Shown in pieces: positions 1-44,630 of a stretch of DNA of 64,000 bases (positions within the stretch are counted from its first letter, which is position 1; the number at the start of each line of letters is the position of its first letter). The stretch spans positions 1,008 through 65,007 of the forward strand of contig JAFTXP010000017.1 of the NCBI GenBank assembly GCA_017461545.1, written 5' to 3'. The position numbers and the translations under genes are program-made. The notes under the pieces are model-generated. The model was not told where the DNA came from and searched no databases. It saw only the letters and a program-made list of their open reading frames with translations. The DNA is from Clostridia bacterium. Its GTDB lineage: Bacteria > Bacillota > Clostridia > UBA1212.

Positions 1-1
1 C

Positions 2-820
2 AGAACAGCTGTATTGGGCGATACACTTGATATTGACTTCAAAGGACTTCTTGACGGAGAGTCTTTTGAGGGTGGTACTGCAGAAGGTCATTCACTTACA
101 CTCGGCTCTGGTCAATTTATTCCCGGATTTGAGGATCAGCTTGTAGGCGCAGGCGTAGGCGACGAGGTTAACGTAAACGTTACATTCCCAGAGGACTATC
201 ACGCAGAAGAACTCAAGGGTAAGCCGGTAGTATTCGAAGTAAAGGTTAACGGAATAAAGACAAGAGAGCTTCCCGAGATAAATGACGATTTTGCTTCAGA
301 CGTAAGTGAGTTTGAGACTCTTGACGAATACAAAGCTGATTTAAAGGCAAAAATGGCAGAAAAGAAAGCTACAGAGTCCAAACAGGCTATGGAAAACGAA
401 GTTATCGAAAAAGCTACAGCTAACGCAACTATCGACGTTCCCGAGTGCATGGTTGAGAGAAAAATCGACACTATGATAGAGAGATATAAGAACATGGTTG
501 CACAGCAGGTAGGTATTCCGTTTGATCAGTATGTTTCTATGTGCGGTCTCACAATTGAAGGCATGAGAAATGACCTCAGAGAAGGCGCAGAGAAGAATGT
601 ACGCGAGAGCCTTGTCCTCGAAGCTATTGCCAAAGCTGAAGATATCAAAGCGTCCGACGAGCAGATTGATGCTAAACTTGCAGAACTCGCAGAACAGTAC
701 AAGATGTCTTTGGACGAATTAAAAGAAAGAGTTACAGACACAGACCGCGCATACTTCGGTGATGAAATTGCAGTAGAACTCACTATTGCTTTCTTGCTTG
801 ACAGTGCCGTAAAGGCGTAA
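2..820 (+). CDS. tig: Trigger factor, C-terminal ~270 aa (5' end cut by window edge)
   Basis: Frame is open from position 2. FKBP-type PPIase segment [10 protein letters not shown]...[15 protein letters not shown] plus the C-terminal arm. Sits in the conserved tig-clpP-clpX order. Confidence 0.9.
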
Positions 821-41199: not shown

Positions 41200-41225
41200 T
41201 TGGGATTTATGCGAAAATTTGCAGT

Positions 41226-41254
41226 TTGACACAATTTTCTCAAAAGTGTAATAT
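41226..41254 (+). promoter_or_regulatory. Strong sigma-70-type promoter TTGACA-17-TAATAT (copy A)
   Basis: Consensus -35 with a 17-nt spacer. No ORF follows. An intrinsic terminator lies ~55-100 nt downstream. A near-identical copy is at 43408..43436. Confidence 0.6.
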
Positions 41255-41307
41255 AAATATACAAAGAAATGCTCAGCGAAAGCAGTCGTTTTCTTTGTGC
41301 TATTGGA

Positions 41308-41352
41308 CAATAATCGTCAACAGCTTTCAGAGGGTGTGTTGGCGATTATTTT
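41308..41352. terminator. Hairpin terminator shared by convergent transcripts
   Basis: aataatcgtcaaca / tgttggcgattatt 14-bp stem (one G-U pair) followed on the + strand by tttgcg. The 3' arm overlaps the stop of the minus-strand 26-aa ORF. Confidence 0.65.
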
Positions 41353-41426
41353 GCGTTATGTATGAGAAGAATCAGTAATAATTCTATTACAGTCAAAAGT
41401 ATCATGATTATTTCAAATTCTGTCAT
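41346..41426 (-). CDS. 26-aa hydrophobic peptide MTEFEIIMILLTVIELLLILLIHNAK (type I toxin / Hol-Tox-like candidate)
   Basis: Not in the ORF track because it is too short. SD ggaggtga is 8 nt upstream of the ATG. Single TM helix with a polar/basic C-terminus. Confidence 0.55.
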   Translation of the reverse strand: MTEFEIIMILLTVIELLLILLIHNAK

Positions 41427-41682
41427 GAACATCACCTCCCCGCGCATTTATGAAAATGCACAAAGGAAACAACCGCTGTATCTTTTCTGAAATAAAACTT
41501 CAATCTTTTTTATACTCAAAAAATTGGTAGCGACAGTAAACCGTTGTGAAGGCGTTTACAACTGAGCAGGTTTACGGAGCGTGATTTTTTTGCGAAAAGG
41601 ATGCGTGACGGAATGAATGAGTGATGATTTTTAATCATTACGAATGGTATCAAGTCCACTCCGACGCGGTAGCAGATTTCCA

Positions 41683-41887
41683 TAAATCTACACTCTTACC
41701 TCGGCTGTTTTTGCCATGATAGACAGTTGTTTTACAGTTTTATTGCAAACTGTAAAATCGATAGTGTATACTGTAAGACACAGTAAGATATTTTTCACAG
41801 TACATATTTTCTATAACTTTTATATTTCATACAGCTATAGATATCTTAACTTAAAAAGAGGGATATTTATGGTTGTTTTTCATGGCA
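41683..41887 (+). repeat. ~205-bp direct repeat, copy 1 (promoter/leader and first 6 codons of the DUF3990 gene)
   Basis: Near-identical to 43437..43642, with a few substitutions and a 1-nt indel. Contains the palindrome ttttacagttt-N6-aaactgtaaaa overlapping TTGCAA. Confidence 0.9.
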
Positions 41888-42348
41888 GCGATGTTGCTGT
41901 TGCATGTCCTGTTATTCTTACTCCGAAGCGACCGCTTGATTTCGGTGCGGGTTTTTATGTGACGGAGAGCAGGGAGCAGTCAGAGAGTTGGGCGAAGAAA
42001 GTTGCGATACGAAATTTTACGACAAAAAGAATAGTCAGCATTTATGACTTTGATGTTGAAGCTGCAGAGAAAAGTGTACATATTATTCGGTTTGATAATG
42101 TGGATAGTACTTGGTTAAACTTTATATGTAATAACAGAAAAGGTTTGACGGATTTTGAGTATGATATTGCGATAGGGCCGGTTGCCGATGATAAGGTGTA
42201 CAAGGTCGTAATAGAGTACGAAATCGGTATTATTGACGAGGCGCGTGCGATTAAAAGATTAAAGGCGGAAAAACTGTATAATCAGATTGTATTTCACACG
42301 GAAGATGCATTAAAATATGTAGAGTATATAACATCGGAGGTTTTATAA
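41869..42348 (+). CDS. DUF3990 domain protein
   Basis: MVVFHGSDV...PLDFGAGFYVTESREQSESWAKK...IGPVADDKVY is the DUF3990 pattern. SD aagaggga. The ORF-track start at 41716 is an upstream read-through of repeat DNA. Confidence 0.7.
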   Translation: MVVFHGSDVAVACPVILTPKRPLDFGAGFYVTESREQSESWAKKVAIRNFTTKRIVSIYDFDVEAAEKSVHIIRFDNVDSTWLNFICNNRKGLTDFEYDIAIGPVADDKVYKVVIEYEIGIIDEARAIKRLKAEKLYNQIVFHTEDALKYVEYITSEVL

Positions 42349-42353
42349 CAGCT

Positions 42354-42566
42354 ATGGAAGATATCCGTTTCGAAGTTCTTATGTATGACAAAACAGCAAA
42401 TGTGATAGATTTATTGATAGAAAAATACGGGTGGACTGAAAATGTTGCTATCGAACGGTTTACACAGTCGGAAGTCTATTCACTTTTAGAACGTCAAGAG
42501 ACCGGATTTTGGAAGCTTTCAGATACAGAGATTGCCGAGAAGTTCTTTGATGATTTTGATATTTGA
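42354..42566 (+). CDS. Small helical protein, DUF3791-like (uncertain)
   Basis: 70 aa, immediately after DUF3990. Layout is similar to the following DUF3791 protein. Confidence 0.45.
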   Translation: MEDIRFEVLMYDKTANVIDLLIEKYGWTENVAIERFTQSEVYSLLERQETGFWKLSDTEIAEKFFDDFDI

Positions 42567-42587
42567 TGTGTTTTTAGGGGGTAGATT

Positions 42588-42788
42588 ATGACTGATACAT
42601 TAGAATTTAAAGTGTTTTGTTTTGAAGCTTACCGCAACGAGAAAAAGATGACCGGCAGTGATGTTATGGAGTTGTTTAAAAAATACGGTGTGCTTGATTA
42701 TATAGACAAGTGCTTTGATGTGCTACACACGCAGGGTAGAGCATATTTGATTTATGATATTGATATGTATATTGAGGCGAGAAAATGA
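42588..42788 (+). CDS. DUF3791 domain protein
   Basis: FKVFCFEAYRNEKKMTGSDVMELFKKYGVLDYIDKCFDVLHTQGRAYLIYDIDMYI matches the DUF3791 consensus as remembered. Confidence 0.65.
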   Translation: MTDTLEFKVFCFEAYRNEKKMTGSDVMELFKKYGVLDYIDKCFDVLHTQGRAYLIYDIDMYIEARK

Positions 42789-43267
42789 ATTTGTCAAAGA
42801 AAACAATACTATTAACAGCTTTTAAACATACATCTGCGGATAAACTGATAAAAGATATATTGGACTTTGATACTTTATTTTTGCCAAATGACAAGATATT
42901 AGATTCACAAAAGACGATTGATTATATCTCAAAGAGAAAAGTTGACTACATCATAAGTATCGGTCAAAAGCCAAATATTAAAGATAAAGTTCATATTGAA
43001 ACTCTTGCTTCAAAAAAGACGTGCAATCTTTATACATCGTTTGATTATGAAAATCTTAAAATTCTATTTGAAAAGAATGGTCTAATGGCAAAACTTTCGA
43101 ATAATGCGGGAACATCCTATTGCAATGAGTTGTACTTTAATGGGTTATCTTATATTCAGAACATAAAAACGATGCAAATGATTTTCATTCACATTCCATA
43201 TGTGAAAAACATCAGCGATTTTACCGAATTCAAAAAACGGTTTATAAATACGATTCATGAACTGTAA
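42785..43267 (+). CDS. Peptidase C15 (pyroglutamyl-peptidase I)-like protein, divergent
   Basis: ILLTAFKH, VHIETLA (Glu), SNNAGTSYCNELYF (Cys) and MIFIHIPY (His) align with the C15 catalytic triad contexts. ATGA overlap with the previous gene. Confidence 0.55.
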   Translation: MNLSKKTILLTAFKHTSADKLIKDILDFDTLFLPNDKILDSQKTIDYISKRKVDYIISIGQKPNIKDKVHIETLASKKTCNLYTSFDYENLKILFEKNGLMAKLSNNAGTSYCNELYFNGLSYIQNIKTMQMIFIHIPYVKNISDFTEFKKRFINTIHEL

Positions 43268-43300
43268 GACTCGGTTTCGGTGTGAGTTTTCTTGAACATA

Positions 43301-43350
43301 AAATGATTATGAGTTGGTTATGAGGTGTAATCGACTCATAATCATTTTTT
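43301..43350 (+). terminator. Rho-independent terminator
   Basis: aaatgattatgagt / actcataatcattt 14-bp perfect stem followed by ttt. Confidence 0.75.
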
Positions 43351-43407
43351 ATGTTTTAGAAGTGCTTATTTGTTTTCTCACTTCTTTTCCCACTAACACA
43401 AAACGGA

Positions 43408-43436
43408 TTGACACAATTTTCTCGAAAGTGTAATAG
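43408..43436 (+). promoter_or_regulatory. Promoter TTGACA-17-TAATAG (copy B of 41226..41254)
   Basis: ttgacacaattttctcgaaagtgtaatag differs from copy A at 2-3 positions. It directly abuts repeat copy 2. Confidence 0.5.
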
Positions 43437-43642
43437 TAAATCTACACTCTTACCTCGGCTGTTTTTGCCATGATAGACAGTTGTTTTACAGTTTTGTTGC
43501 AAACTGTAAAATCGATAGTGTATACTGTAAGTCGCAGTAAGATATTTTTCACAGTACATATTTTCTATAACTTTTATATTTCATACAGCCATAGATATCT
43601 TAACTTAAAAGGGGGGGATATTTATGGTTGTTTTTCATGGCA
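43437..43642 (+). repeat. ~205-bp direct repeat, copy 2 (ends in a truncated DUF3990 start: MVVFHGKISFFNF*)
   Basis: Aligns with 41683..41887. Homology stops after catggca. Confidence 0.9.
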
Positions 43643-43737
43643 AAATAAGTTTTTTTAATTTTTAGAAAATAATTACGTGGAATTGTGTAAATTGTTCCTT
43701 TAAAAAGGTCTTGCATTGTATCAATAAGATATTGATA

Positions 43738-43770
43738 TTCTATGCATATTTTGATAAAATATGCATAGAA
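43738..43770. promoter_or_regulatory. Perfect 15-bp inverted repeat (putative TA autoregulatory operator)
   Basis: ttctatgcatatttt-gat-aaaatatgcatagaa sits between a TTGCAT-17-GATATT promoter and the antitoxin SD. Confidence 0.6.
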
Positions 43771-43790
43771 TAATTAAGGGAGGTAATTTT

Positions 43791-44063
43791 ATGGCAACTA
43801 TAAGACCGAGTTCTGATTTGAGAAACAAATATAATGAGATATCTGACTTTTGTAATCGTTATAATGAGCCTGTTTTTATAACTAAAAACGGCACGGGAGA
43901 TTTAGTTGTTCTATCAAATGCAGAATATGAACGACTTTGCGGTAAAGCAGAGTTGCACAGGCTTTTGGATGAGGGACTTTTTGATGTTAAAAACGCCGCC
44001 GGTCGTGAGGCGTCCGACGTTTTTTCTGACGTAGAGAGGAAGTTCGGCTTTGACGAAATATAA
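43791..44063 (+). CDS. Type II antitoxin (Phd/YefM-RelB-like)
   Basis: MATIRPSSDLRNKYNEISDFCNRYNEPVFITKNGTGDLVVLSNAEYERL is the classic antitoxin N-domain. SD gggagg. Confidence 0.8.
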   Translation: MATIRPSSDLRNKYNEISDFCNRYNEPVFITKNGTGDLVVLSNAEYERLCGKAELHRLLDEGLFDVKNAAGREASDVFSDVERKFGFDEI

Positions 44064-44364
44064 AATAATTATAGAAAAAAGTGCTGAGAAGGATTTGAAT
44101 GATATTATTGTGTATATCGGAGAGATACTTCATGAACCTGATATCGCTATGAAAATTTATTTTTCAATAAAAATAAAGATTTTATCTTTAAAAGAGTTGC
44201 CGCTCAGATATGCTTTGATAAAAGATGAACCGTATTGTTCTATGGGAGTAAGACGAATTCCTGCTGAAAACTATACTGTTTTTTATGTTGTTGATGAAGC
44301 CGGCCGTACAGTACATATTTTTCGAATATTGCATATTCGCAGAGAGTGGAAAAGTTTGCTGTAA
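44050..44364 (+). CDS. Type II toxin, RelE/ParE family
   Basis: TTG start overlapping the antitoxin by 14 nt. IIIEKSAEKDLNDII...YTVFYVVDEAGRTVHIFRILHIRR is the ParE/RelE layout. Confidence 0.75.
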   Translation: MTKYKIIIEKSAEKDLNDIIVYIGEILHEPDIAMKIYFSIKIKILSLKELPLRYALIKDEPYCSMGVRRIPAENYTVFYVVDEAGRTVHIFRILHIRREWKSLL

Positions 44365-44423
44365 TGCATAAATTGGTTTTGTTGATTTATGAGTTTTGAA
44401 GATTTAATATGATATGTAATTTT

Positions 44424-44471
44424 AACCGCGAAACTTTTTGTTTTTTTGATGTTTCGCGGTTCTTTTTTTTT
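44424..44471 (+). terminator. Rho-independent terminator
   Basis: aaccgcgaaac / gtttcgcggtt stem followed by a 10-nt T-run. Confidence 0.8.
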
Positions 44472-44485
44472 CGTCACAAAACCGA

Positions 44486-44513
44486 TTGACACATCCCCGT
44501 TATCTGTTATAAT
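44486..44513 (+). promoter_or_regulatory. Promoter TTGACA-16-(TGt)TATAAT of the zur-znu operon
   Basis: Consensus -35, extended -10 tgttataat. Confidence 0.7.
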
Positions 44514-44514
44514 G

Positions 44515-44535
44515 ATTTGCGAATCGTTCGCAAAT
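44515..44535. promoter_or_regulatory. 21-bp palindrome ATTTGCGAA-TCG-TTCGCAAAT (candidate Fur-family/Zur operator)
   Basis: Perfect 9-3-9 inverted repeat starting 2 nt after the -10 hexamer, so it covers the likely TSS. Confidence 0.5.
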
Positions 44536-44630
44536 TGGAACGTGCATATTTGCAAATTGGGGCGGTCTCATATGCAAATTCGGCACAGGCCATTCGCAAA
44601 TTTTGTTTGCGATTTGCAAATGACCGCTTA
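44521..44630 (+). repeat. Five phased GCAAAT-containing direct repeats (period 22, 22, 22, 20 bp)
   Basis: GCAAAT starts at 44530, 44552, 44574, 44596 and 44616, in contexts ttcGCAAATTgg, tttGCAAATTgg, tatGCAAATTcgg, ttcGCAAATTtt and tttGCAAATga. Confidence 0.8.

What the first reader, a model, noticed from the sequence alone, without database searches (positions are those of the whole stretch)
41226..41440. Type I toxin-antitoxin-like unit: 26-aa hydrophobic peptide convergent with an ORF-less promoter+terminator transcript
On the minus strand, a strong SD (ggaggtga, 8-nt spacing) precedes MTEFEIIMILLTVIELLLILLIHNAK. This is one TM helix with a polar/basic end, similar in size and shape to Hol-Tox/Fst/TxpA-type toxins. 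It is too short for the ORF track.

On the plus strand, a near-consensus promoter (TTGACA-17-TAATAT, 41226..41254) has no ORF behind it and runs into a 14-bp-stem terminator (41308..41352). That terminator overlaps the peptide's stop codon and 3' end. This would give an antisense RNA of about 95 nt pairing with the 3' region of the peptide mRNA, the arrangement of txpA/RatA and bsrG/SR4 in B. subtilis.

The peptide's 5' UTR also contains a small hairpin (tgcattt/aaatgc) just upstream of the SD.
Basis: partly seen in the sequence, partly recalled or inferred. Interest (0 to 1): 0.6.

Follow-up and report, generated by a model that had tools for sequence, protein, structure and literature searches.

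The report
Small toxin gene with antisense RNA
This is very probably a new family of type I toxin-antitoxin module, in which a 26-residue membrane peptide is held in check by an overlapping antisense RNA. It comes from an uncultured gut Clostridia bacterium, is built like bsrG/SR4 of Bacillus subtilis, and no experiment has yet tested it.

Summary
These are the minus-strand ORF (41346-41426, 26 aa, GGAGG 8 nt upstream), the plus-strand promoter TTGACA-17-TAATAT (41226-41254), the 14-bp hairpin over the stop codon, and the small hairpin before the SD.

Comparative data lift this above chance. Three full homologous loci in unrelated genomic contexts (L036, L037, L038), plus about ten partial variants in gut-metagenome contigs, keep these features:
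- the peptide at protein level (MTEFEII..LTVIE..ILL..K; changes fall mostly on third codon positions);
- the SD spacing;
- a convergent antisense promoter whose spacer sequence varies;
- an antisense-strand terminator whose U-tract is the complement of the toxin's Lys-Lys-stop codons.

The toxin mRNA also has a conserved 19-25-bp helix between its 5' and 3' ends, like helix P1 of bsrG RNA.

The peptide shares the N-terminal motif of TxpA/BsrG but does not reach Pfam PF16935 or Rfam BsrG thresholds. I file it as a new family of a known kind.

No transcript or toxicity data exist, and the toxin promoter is not identified. The module sits in a small defence/TA island next to a PDC-M13 (DUF3990/DUF3791) cassette and a Phd/ParE pair.

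The parts
41226..41254 (+). Promoter P1 of the antisense (antitoxin) RNA, TTGACA-17-TAATAT. Predicted TSS is about 41261.
   Evidence: 10/12. The same -35/17 nt/-10 layout occurs with a different spacer in L037, in L038 (TTGACA-17-TATTAT, 11/12) and in loose ends of paralogous Logan contigs (TTGACA, TTGATA or TTCACA at 17 nt).
41261..41358 (+). Predicted antitoxin sRNA of about 95-98 nt. SL1 is 41261-41298, SL2/terminator is 41309-41351, and the U-rich tail is 41352-41358. It is fully complementary to the toxin 3' UTR and last codons.
   Evidence: Fold. Consensus structure of three homologues: 34 pairs, nearly all kept; SL2 has a G.U in all three that would be C.A on the other strand. Its only ORF (14 aa, no SD) is not conserved; variants at 41279, 41300 and 41305/6 are non-conservative or introduce a stop.
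41346..41426 (-). Toxin ORF, 26 aa: MTEFEIIMILLTVIELLLILLIHNAK plus stop. One TM helix, acidic N-terminus, polar/basic C-terminus.
   Evidence: Homologues are P0121, P0122 (27 aa) and P0123 (30 aa). Codon-position differences against L036 are 8/4/14. Variants read from Logan contigs.
41432..41441 (-). Shine-Dalgarno GGGGAGGUGA, with 8 nt between GGAGG and the AUG.
   Evidence: GGAGG lies 8-9 nt before the same ATG in L036 and L037, and AAAGGAGGG lies 7 nt before it in L038. The upstream in-frame ATG is lost in the X8/X17 variant.
41442..41461 (-). 5'-UTR hairpin GUGCAUUU-UCAU-AAAUGCGC directly 5' of the SD. Extended by CUUU:GGGG, it can cover part of the SD.
   Evidence: Kept with different loops (UCAU, UUAU, UUAC, UCGA, UUUAU) and a GCGC-to-GCAC stem change in variants.
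41458..41489 (-). 5' arm of the long-range 5'-3' helix of the toxin mRNA (core 41458-41476, extension 41486-41489).
   Evidence: RNAalifold. Duplexfold, (window -30.8 kcal/mol, z -3.5; L036 -47.3, z -7.3; L037 -42.1, z -5.6).
41271..41300 (-). 3' arm of the long-range helix (core 41282-41300, extension 41271-41274). It lies inside the region bound by the sRNA.
   Evidence: The frequent variant 41292 T>C turns the window's C.A mismatch into C-G on the mRNA strand. 41284 A>G turns G.U into G-C.
41250..41298 (-). Only candidate terminator of the toxin mRNA: the complement of SL1 followed by AUAUUUAUAUU, which is antisense to the -10 box of P1.
   Evidence: inference. It competes with the long-range helix, so the mRNA 3' end is not settled.
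41491..41519 (-). Weak candidate toxin promoter, TTGAGT-17-TTTATT (8/12). Uncertain.
   Evidence: Read from the sequence. TTGnnT is kept in X10 and X13 variants. Below the scan threshold. No convincing toxin promoter in L036 or L037. L038 has TTTACA-16-CATAAT.
41517..41669 (+). Element e: a multi-copy leader of about 150 nt that in other copies precedes an SD and paralogous toxin ORFs (MSDYELLM.., MSDYEIL.., GTG-SDF.., MTE..). Here it is solo, with no ORF behind it, and divergent from the toxin.
   Evidence: read laying: 3-4-fold depth, -10-like boxes before 41517, and toxin starts after 41666-41670. No Rfam match.
43408..43435 (+). Second copy of P1 (96%), fused directly to the second copy of the 180-nt DUF3990 leader.

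Best explanation
The segment 41226-41520 is a self-contained type I toxin-antitoxin module of the 3'-overlap (bsrG/SR4, txpA/RatA) type.

The minus strand gives a toxin mRNA of about 235-250 nt. It encodes a 26-aa single-helix membrane peptide.

The plus strand gives an sRNA of about 95 nt from a strong promoter (P1). The sRNA has two stem-loops. The second is its terminator, and the terminator's U-tract is the complement of the toxin's last codons and stop. The sRNA is therefore fully complementary to the toxin 3' UTR.

Inferred mechanism. In free toxin mRNA, the 5' UTR (41458-41476) pairs with the 3' UTR (41282-41300) in a long helix that closes the ORF, like helix P1 of bsrG RNA. The sRNA carries a near-copy of that 5'-UTR segment. 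When it binds, three things would follow:
- It makes a duplex of about 95 bp, a substrate for RNase III, which leads to mRNA decay.
- It displaces the 5' UTR from the long helix.
- The freed UUUCCUUU stretch can then extend the hairpin next to the SD and cover it, blocking translation, as SR4 does.

If the sRNA is lost, the peptide would be made, insert into the membrane and arrest growth or lyse the cell.

Shown by sequence and comparison: the ORF, SD, promoter, terminator, long-range helix, their conservation, and the multi-copy distribution in several contexts.

Inferred only: transcription, toxicity, RNase III involvement and the SD switch.
For: - Anatomy.
- Rarity of such an ORF in the window.
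- Real homologues in unrelated contexts: L036, L037 (between unrelated genes, next to thiI) and L038. All have an SD 7-9 nt before the same ATG. L037 and L038 have a convergent consensus-like antisense promoter (in L036 the contig ends at the -10 region). All have an antisense-strand terminator whose U-tract is the complement of AAA-AAA/G-stop.
- Protein-level selection: differences at codon positions 1/2/3 are 8/4/14 against L036. L036 against L037 has 4 synonymous and 2 non-synonymous changes. TM substitutions are hydrophobic swaps. T12 is invariant across the homologues; E15 is kept in all close variants but is Ile in the distant 30-aa P0123. Further variants from metagenome contigs.
- Non-coding flanks are more conserved than the ORF.
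- Strand asymmetry: hairpin 2 carries a G.U on the sRNA strand (C.A on the mRNA strand) in all three. The long-range helix carries G.U pairs on the mRNA strand.
- 5'-3' helix: (includes one pair changed on both sides, G-C to A-U); z -3.5, -7.3 and -5.6.
- Parallel with bsrG RNA helix P1, the SR4-induced SD sequestration, and an antitoxin promoter stronger than the toxin promoter: PMC3834814 and PMC6562991.
- Rfam BsrG full-length hit, 23 bits, E 0.003. BLASTP to BsrG 42% identity, E 0.003.
- Multi-copy and dispensable: a paralogue in the same sample, a strain variant lacking exactly hairpin 2 + ORF + SD, and absence from orthologous GH78 loci.
- Setting: a TA/defence island.
Against: - No RNA data.
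- Toxicity is untested.
- The toxin promoter is weak or unidentified in the window, L036 and L037.
- The mRNA terminator candidate competes with the long-range helix.
- The window copy departs from the family consensus at three functional spots, so it could be a weakened copy. It has a C.A mismatch in the long helix, a short U-tract (UUUUGCGUU against U7), and one terminal Lys instead of two.
- The distant homologue L038 shows no 5'-3' helix.
- Only three full-length homologues exist. The other variants are read from 30-nt loose ends.
- Pfam, NCBIfam and Rfam thresholds are not reached.
Confidence: 0.7

Rival explanations
1. It is a conserved small membrane protein under antisense-RNA control, but not a toxin. 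It could be a stress-related or regulatory small membrane protein, with the sRNA simply tuning its level.
For: Everything that shows the ORF and antisense RNA are conserved fits this as well. No toxicity data exist. The peptide is shorter (26-30 aa) than the 28-60-aa range quoted for B. subtilis toxins (PMC6563280). It keeps a Glu and a Thr inside the helix, which could mean specific protein partners.
Against: - Multi-copy, context-hopping distribution, absence from orthologous loci, and a clean natural deletion of the ORF and SD are typical of addiction-type modules rather than housekeeping small proteins.
- The mRNA architecture (closing 5'-3' helix, strong antisense promoter against weak sense promoter) is the one used to keep toxic peptides silent.
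- The N-terminal motif is shared with proven toxins BsrG and TxpA.
Confidence: 0.15
2. It is a decaying or inactive relic of a type I TA module. The family is real, but this copy no longer makes active toxin or efficient antitoxin.
For: - The window copy has a mismatch in the long helix, a shortened terminator U-tract and a single C-terminal Lys relative to L036 and L037.
- The adjacent element e has lost its toxin ORF.
- A related strain has deleted the ORF.
- P1 has been duplicated and rearranged nearby.
Against: - The ORF, SD, start and stop are intact.
- The X8/X17 variant of the same allele shows 3 synonymous and 3 conservative changes, so selection on the peptide continues.
- P1 is a 10/12 promoter.
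- The hairpins are intact.
Confidence: 0.1
3. There is no gene pair. The hairpin is just the terminator of the upstream GH78 gene or an attenuator of a P1-driven leader reading into the DUF3990 cassette, and the ORF is fortuitous.
For: - The hairpin lies 110 nt after the GH78 stop.
- P1 occurs a second time directly in front of the DUF3990 leader.
- In the X4 variant, P1 and SL1 read straight into the downstream elements.
Against: - The same promoter-hairpin-ORF-SD unit occurs next to thiI and other unrelated genes and is absent after GH78 orthologues.
- The ORF shows coding-type substitution patterns.
- The DUF3990 leader has its own promoter and palindromic operator at 41730-41758, about 500 nt beyond the terminator.
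Confidence: 0.04

Closest known systems
bsrG/SR4 of Bacillus subtilis prophage SPbeta (type I TA; Rfam RF01412; toxin in Pfam PF16935)
   Same: - Convergent genes, with the antisense RNA complementary to the toxin 3' UTR and ending at the Lys codons and stop of the ORF.
- Toxin mRNA closed by a long 5'-3' helix (P1), with the SD next to a small 5' stem that can be extended.
- Strong antitoxin promoter against a weak toxin promoter.
- Peptide N-terminus: MT.(F/Y)E..MI (42% identity).
- Full-length sub-threshold Rfam hit.
   Different: - The peptide is 26 aa against 38 aa.
- The sRNA is about 95 nt with 2 stem-loops, against 180 nt with 4.
- The mRNA is about 240 nt against 294 nt.
- No PF16935 hit, and Rfam gives 23 bits against a gathering score of 55.
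- The host is an uncultured gut Clostridia bacterium, and the module is not in a recognisable prophage.
- The 3' arm of the long helix overlaps the candidate terminator.
txpA/RatA and bsrE/SR5, bsrH/as-bsrH (B. subtilis TxpA/BsrG and BsrH/BsrE families)
   Same: 3'-overlapping antisense with about 100-140 bp of complementarity (PMC6562991). Small single-TM toxins start with M-S/T-x-F/Y-E/Q-x-L-M. The paralogues behind element e start with MSDYELLM, which is closer still to TxpA's MSTYESLM.
   Different: TxpA and BsrE hit PF16935 at 31-48 bits, and no member of this family does. hhalign aligns only 11 N-terminal columns, probability 13%.
Clostridioides difficile type I TA modules (CD2517.1/RCd8 etc.)
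   Same: Class Clostridia; small hydrophobic toxins with charged C-termini; multi-copy; located in accessory, prophage or defence regions (PMC6563280).
   Different: C. difficile toxins are 34-59 aa and share no sequence similarity. Many of their promoters are SigB-type. This was not compared at sequence level here.
hok/Sok and other toxin mRNAs with a 5'-3' fold-back (own knowledge)
   Same: A long-distance 5'-3' helix keeps the full-length toxin mRNA compact.
   Different: Sok pairs at the 5' leader, not the 3' UTR. Activation there is by 3' trimming. It is a Gram-negative system with an unrelated peptide.
Plasmid counter-transcript RNAs (Rfam RF00242 ctRNA_pT181)
   Same: A short antisense RNA with two stem-loops and a terminator. 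The L037 sRNA region scores 34 bits (E 0.024).
   Different: Below the gathering score (56). There is no replication gene opposite it. The resemblance is structural only.

Membership tests
Type I toxin-antitoxin system (generic) | Small hydrophobic peptide ORF with its own ribosome-binding site | tested here: met
   26 aa, one TM stretch, GGAGG 8 nt upstream. Conserved in P0121, P0122 and P0123.
Type I toxin-antitoxin system (generic) | Antisense RNA gene overlapping the toxin mRNA (promoter, no ORF, terminator) | tested here: met
   P1 and the terminator are conserved in L037 and L038, and P1 in the Logan paralogues. Met by sequence only; transcripts have not been observed.
Type I toxin-antitoxin system (generic) | Both RNAs are actually transcribed | not testable with these tools
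   No RNA run holds the stretch.
Type I toxin-antitoxin system (generic) | Peptide is toxic on overexpression and is neutralised by the RNA | not testable with these tools
   Needs an experiment.
Pfam PF16935 Hol_Tox (TxpA/BsrG/BsrE/BsrH toxins) | HMM score at or above the gathering score of 23.3 bits | tested here: not met
   No hit at E<=10 for the window peptide or for P0121/P0122/P0123-type peptides. In the same scan BsrG scored 34.5, TxpA 31.3 and BsrE 47.9 bits.
Pfam PF16935 Hol_Tox (TxpA/BsrG/BsrE/BsrH toxins) | N-terminal motif M-S/T-x-F/Y-E/Q-x-L/I-M followed by a TM helix and a basic tail | tested here: inconclusive
   MTEFEIIM against MTVYESLM. BLASTP 42% identity, E 0.003 for a single pair. 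hhalign aligned 11 columns, probability 13%.
Rfam RF01412 BsrG RNA | Covariance-model score at or above the gathering score of 55 bits | tested here: not met
   23 bits, E 0.003, model positions 1-259, minus strand 41230-41484.
bsrG/SR4-type architecture | Antitoxin complementary to the toxin 3' end; toxin mRNA 5' and 3' parts pair in a long helix; SD in or next to a short stem | tested here: met
   compared with the probed bsrG structure in PMC3834814. These are predicted structures, not probed ones.
NCBIfam type I toxin models (Fst, PepG1, ComI etc.) | HMM hit | tested here: not met
   No hit at E<=10.

The most novel reading that the evidence does not exclude
The module represents an undescribed, widespread family of 26-30-aa TxpA/BsrG-like toxins in uncultured ruminant and gut Clostridia. 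The family would exist with two interchangeable leaders: the short leader here, and the 150-nt element e. It would move as a self-contained cassette of about 280-430 bp. Here the cassette is bounded by the near-identical decamers TAAATATACA (41252-41261) and TAAATCTACA (41683-41692). Its strong promoter and terminators could be co-opted to rewire neighbouring defence genes, since P1 is found fused to a DUF3990/PDC-M13 leader at 43408. The solo e RNA kept beside the toxin could itself be a regulator.
Probability: 0.15. Interest if true: 0.6.

Novelty: new member of a known kind. Interest (0 to 1): 0.42.

Why it matters
- Type I TA systems are hard to find because the peptides escape gene callers and do not match across families. 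Clostridia outside C. difficile are almost unexplored.
- This gives a concrete new family from uncultured gut bacteria: a peptide motif, an sRNA and an mRNA fold. It is absent from Pfam, NCBIfam and Rfam.
- It appears to use the same two-way control as bsrG/SR4. That suggests the 5'-3' helix plus SD-switch design is older and more widespread than the Bacillus examples.
- It flags an unannotated gene pair inside a defence/TA island.
- It supplies seeds for an HMM or covariance model to annotate rumen and gut metagenomes.

Tried and rejected
- The peptide is too short for the search for homologous proteins and the search for related loci.
- phmmer of the 33-aa ORF against 1.84 billion representatives found 0 hits.
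- tblastn of the peptide against phages found nothing. blastn of the module against phages and plasmids found nothing.
- Exact or degenerate DNA patterns gave either no hit or only chance hits:
  - Genome contigs. Hits were checked by BLAST.
  - Metagenome contigs. L008 is a chance match.
  - Viral contigs. One search shows that none of the 13 viral hits is a short TM peptide.
- What worked was a composite query made from the window peptide plus fragments read off Logan contigs, followed by a profile.
- The idea that element e is a T-box or another riboswitch was rejected. It has no Rfam hit, and the GGGTGTGGTACC after it is an SD region followed by a toxin start.
- The idea that P1 is simply the DUF3990 promoter interrupted by an insertion was rejected. 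P1 travels with the module in L037 and in paralogues.
- The 14-aa plus-strand ORF in the sRNA was rejected as coding (no SD; non-conservative and stop variants).
- GH78 orthologue loci were fetched hoping for orthologous modules. They lack it.

Full report
**Observation**

The minus strand carries GGGGAGGUGA (41441-41432), 8 nt, then ATG at 41426. A 26-codon ORF follows, ending in TAA at 41348-41346, and encodes MTEFEIIMILLTVIELLLILLIHNAK.

The plus strand carries TTGACA-17-TAATAT at 41226-41254.

A hairpin has arms at 41309-41322 and 41338-41351. It has 14 bp with one G.U, and inner pairs extend it. It spans the stop codon.

An 8-bp hairpin, GUGCAUUU-UCAU-AAAUGCGC, abuts the SD.

I scanned both strands of the 64-kb window for ORFs of 15-60 aa with an SD and a strongly hydrophobic stretch. 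Two candidates came back. This ORF ranked first, and the other lies out of frame inside a gene.

**First leads**

- A permissive Rfam scan gave a full-length but sub-threshold match of the minus strand 41230-41484 to BsrG RNA: 23 bits, E 0.003, against a gathering score of 55. The alignment puts the SD, the start codon, the first codons and the A-rich end of the ORF in register.
- Pfam and NCBIfam gave nothing for the peptide.
- The BsrG sequence was verified at 100% in SPbeta phages. It aligns to the peptide at 42% identity, E 0.003 for the single pair.
- In the same Pfam scan BsrG, TxpA and BsrE hit PF16935, and the window peptide did not.
- Profile-profile comparison aligns only the 11 N-terminal columns.

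**Local rearrangement**

P1 (41226-41253) recurs at 43408-43435 (96%). The 180-nt leader in front of DUF3990 (41683-41862) recurs at 43437-43616 (97%). In the second copy the two are contiguous. In the first they are 429 nt apart. The decamers TAAATATACA and TAAATCTACA lie at the two edges of that 429-nt segment.

I first considered that the toxin unit was an insertion into a DUF3990 promoter. Later data show that P1 belongs to the toxin module. The second copy is best read as a local duplication with a deletion. The DUF3990 leader has its own promoter (41731-41758) inside a palindrome.

**Relatives**

The source is a gut-metagenome MAG. No RNA run holds the stretch. Pattern scans of the public collections failed.

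Laying Logan contigs from other gut and bovine metagenomes on the window gave the first relatives.

1. One allele (X8/X17) has three synonymous changes (L11, V13, L20) and three conservative changes (I14L, N24K, A25T). It has also lost the upstream in-frame ATG, which supports the 26-aa start.
2. Diverged copies, read from loose ends, give MTEFEIMVIVLTVIE.., MTEFEIIALLLTVIEI.., ..IVILLTNSIKK*, ..IVILLIDSIKK*, MTDFE.. and MTDFK...
3. In paralogous contexts P1 keeps TTGACA, TTGATA or TTCACA, a 17-nt spacing and TAATAT, with a different spacer sequence.
4. The 5' hairpin is kept with different loops.
5. A contig from the same sample has the flanks with a different middle, so it is a paralogue.
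6. One strain variant (X4) joins 41298 to 44444's counterpart at 41444. It lacks exactly hairpin 2, the ORF and the SD.

A composite protein query built from these fragments found real database entries.

- P0121 and P0122 are over-extended gene calls ending in MTEFEIIAIVLTVIEIIVILLTNYIKK and MTEFEIIAILLTVIEIIVILLTNSIKK.
- P0123 is MSDFEIIMILLTVLIIVVTLILAMFSATKK (30 aa).
- Their loci are L036, L037 and L038. They lie in unrelated contexts; in L037 the module sits 15 nt from the end of thiI.
- None of these peptides hits Pfam.

**Comparative anatomy**

- All loci have an SD 7-9 nt before the same ATG.
- L037 has TTGACA-17-TAATAT on the opposite strand.
- L038 has TTGACA-17-TATTAT (11/12, with TG).
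- On that opposite strand a hairpin is followed by U7 (L036, L037) or UCACUUUUUU (L038). This tail is the complement of the toxin's AAA-AAA/G-stop.
- The basic C-terminus of the peptide and the terminator tail of the sRNA are therefore the same DNA.
- The toxin's distal 3' tail is likewise the complement of the -10 box of P1.
- Codon-position differences between the window and L036 are 8/4/14. L036 against L037 has 4 synonymous and 2 non-synonymous changes.
- The non-coding flanks are more conserved than the ORF.
- Hairpin 2 contains a G.U on the antisense strand in all three sequences, which is a C.A mismatch on the mRNA strand. This is as expected if it is selected as the sRNA terminator.

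**mRNA fold**

RNAalifold on the three toxin-sense sequences predicts that the 5' UTR (window 41458-41476, GCGGUUGUUUCCUUUGUGC) pairs with the 3' UTR (41282-41300). An outer extension changes from UUGG/CCGA to UCAG/CUGA in the window, including one pair changed on both sides.

| Locus | Duplex energy (kcal/mol) | z | Shuffles as good (of 500) |
|---|---|---|---|
| Window | -30.8 | -3.5 | 1 |
| L036 | -47.3 | -7.3 | 0 |
| L037 | -42.1 | -5.6 | 0 |
| L038 | -10.7 | +1.3 (no better than shuffles) | 464 |

(All.)

The mismatches at DNA level are G.U on the mRNA strand. The common variants 41292 T>C and 41284 A>G improve this helix.

This mirrors the probed bsrG RNA. There nt 1-35 pair with nt 232-262 (helix P1) and the SD sits in a 4-bp stem. 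SR4 binding frees the 5' part and extends SD pairing to 8 bp. The antitoxin promoter is the stronger of the two (PMC3834814; PMC6562991).

In the window, the freed UUUCCUUU can extend the 5' hairpin over GGGG of the SD. This step is inference.

**Element e**

The segment 41517-41669 is present at 3-4-fold depth in many contexts. It is preceded there by -10-like boxes.

In other copies it is followed by an SD and a toxin start: GTG-TCA-GAT-T....GTG TCA GAT TAT GAA CTA CTT ATG (MSDYELLM), ATG TCT GAT TAT GAA ATC TTA (MSDYEIL), or MTE... It is therefore the long leader of paralogous toxins, whose N-termini are even closer to TxpA.

In the window and in several variants it stands alone, divergent from the toxin. 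It has no Rfam match.

**Setting**

Orthologous GlmM-GH78 loci (85%, 82% and 69% identity) lack the module and carry other genes before fur-znuA.

In the window the island holds, in order:
- the toxin module;
- a DUF3990 / 70-aa / DUF3791 cassette that matches the PADLOC candidate defence system PDC-M13;
- a peptidase_C15-like gene;
- a Phd/ParE pair.

**Verdict**

The unit works like bsrG/SR4 but fails the membership thresholds of PF16935 and RF01412. It is best called a new family of a known kind.

Still open:
- transcription;
- toxicity;
- the toxin promoter;
- the mRNA 3' end;
- the role of solo element e;
- whether this particular copy is fully active.

Noticed in passing
window 41517-41669 (+): Multi-copy element of about 150 nt (element e), preceded elsewhere by -10-like boxes. 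In other copies it is followed by an SD and toxin starts (MSDYELLM.., MSDYEIL.., GTG-SDF). Here and in several variants it stands alone beside the toxin, and its role is unknown. It has no Rfam match.
   Followed up: partly
window 41683-41862 and 43437-43616: A 180-nt leader is duplicated at 97%. It contains a promoter (41731-41758) inside the palindrome TTTTACAGTTT..AAACTGTAAAA, which looks like an operator. The second copy is followed only by a truncated DUF3990 start (MVVFHGK*, ATG at 43625) and is preceded by a copy of P1 (43408-43435).
   Followed up: partly
window 41869-42788 (+): The three-gene cassette DUF3990 (159 aa), a 70-aa protein and DUF3791 (66 aa) matches the PADLOC candidate anti-phage system PDC-M13 (A/B/C) at E 1e-55, 8e-12 and 2e-29.
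   Followed up: partly
window 43761-44364 (+): Phd/YefM antitoxin and ParE toxin pair (type II TA), with a perfect 17-bp palindrome at 43736-43772 over its promoter.
   Followed up: no
window 41299-41443: A related strain (run X4, 217-nt contig) joins 41298 to 41444. It lacks exactly hairpin 2, the peptide ORF and the SD, and the deletion is flanked by 2-nt microhomology.
   Followed up: partly
window 41200-44500; L023, L024, L025: The stretch between the GH78 rhamnosidase-like gene and fur-znuA is a variable island. Orthologous loci carry an acyltransferase and UPF0236 transposase fragments, a zinc-ribbon protein, or a TetR/ABC exporter instead.
   Followed up: partly
L037 928-1040 (-): The predicted antitoxin RNA of the L037 homologue gives a sub-threshold Rfam hit to plasmid counter-transcript ctRNA_pT181 (34.4 bits, gathering score 56, E 0.024).
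   Followed up: no
window 44527-44578: Overlapping 30-nt palindromes (TTTGCAAAT-type) lie just upstream of or within the start of the Fur-family gene that precedes znuA. This may be a Fur/Zur box.
   Followed up: no
window 43300-43348 (+): A strong 20-bp hairpin with a U-tract, a terminator after the 160-aa peptidase_C15-like gene, lies immediately upstream of the second P1 copy.
   Followed up: no
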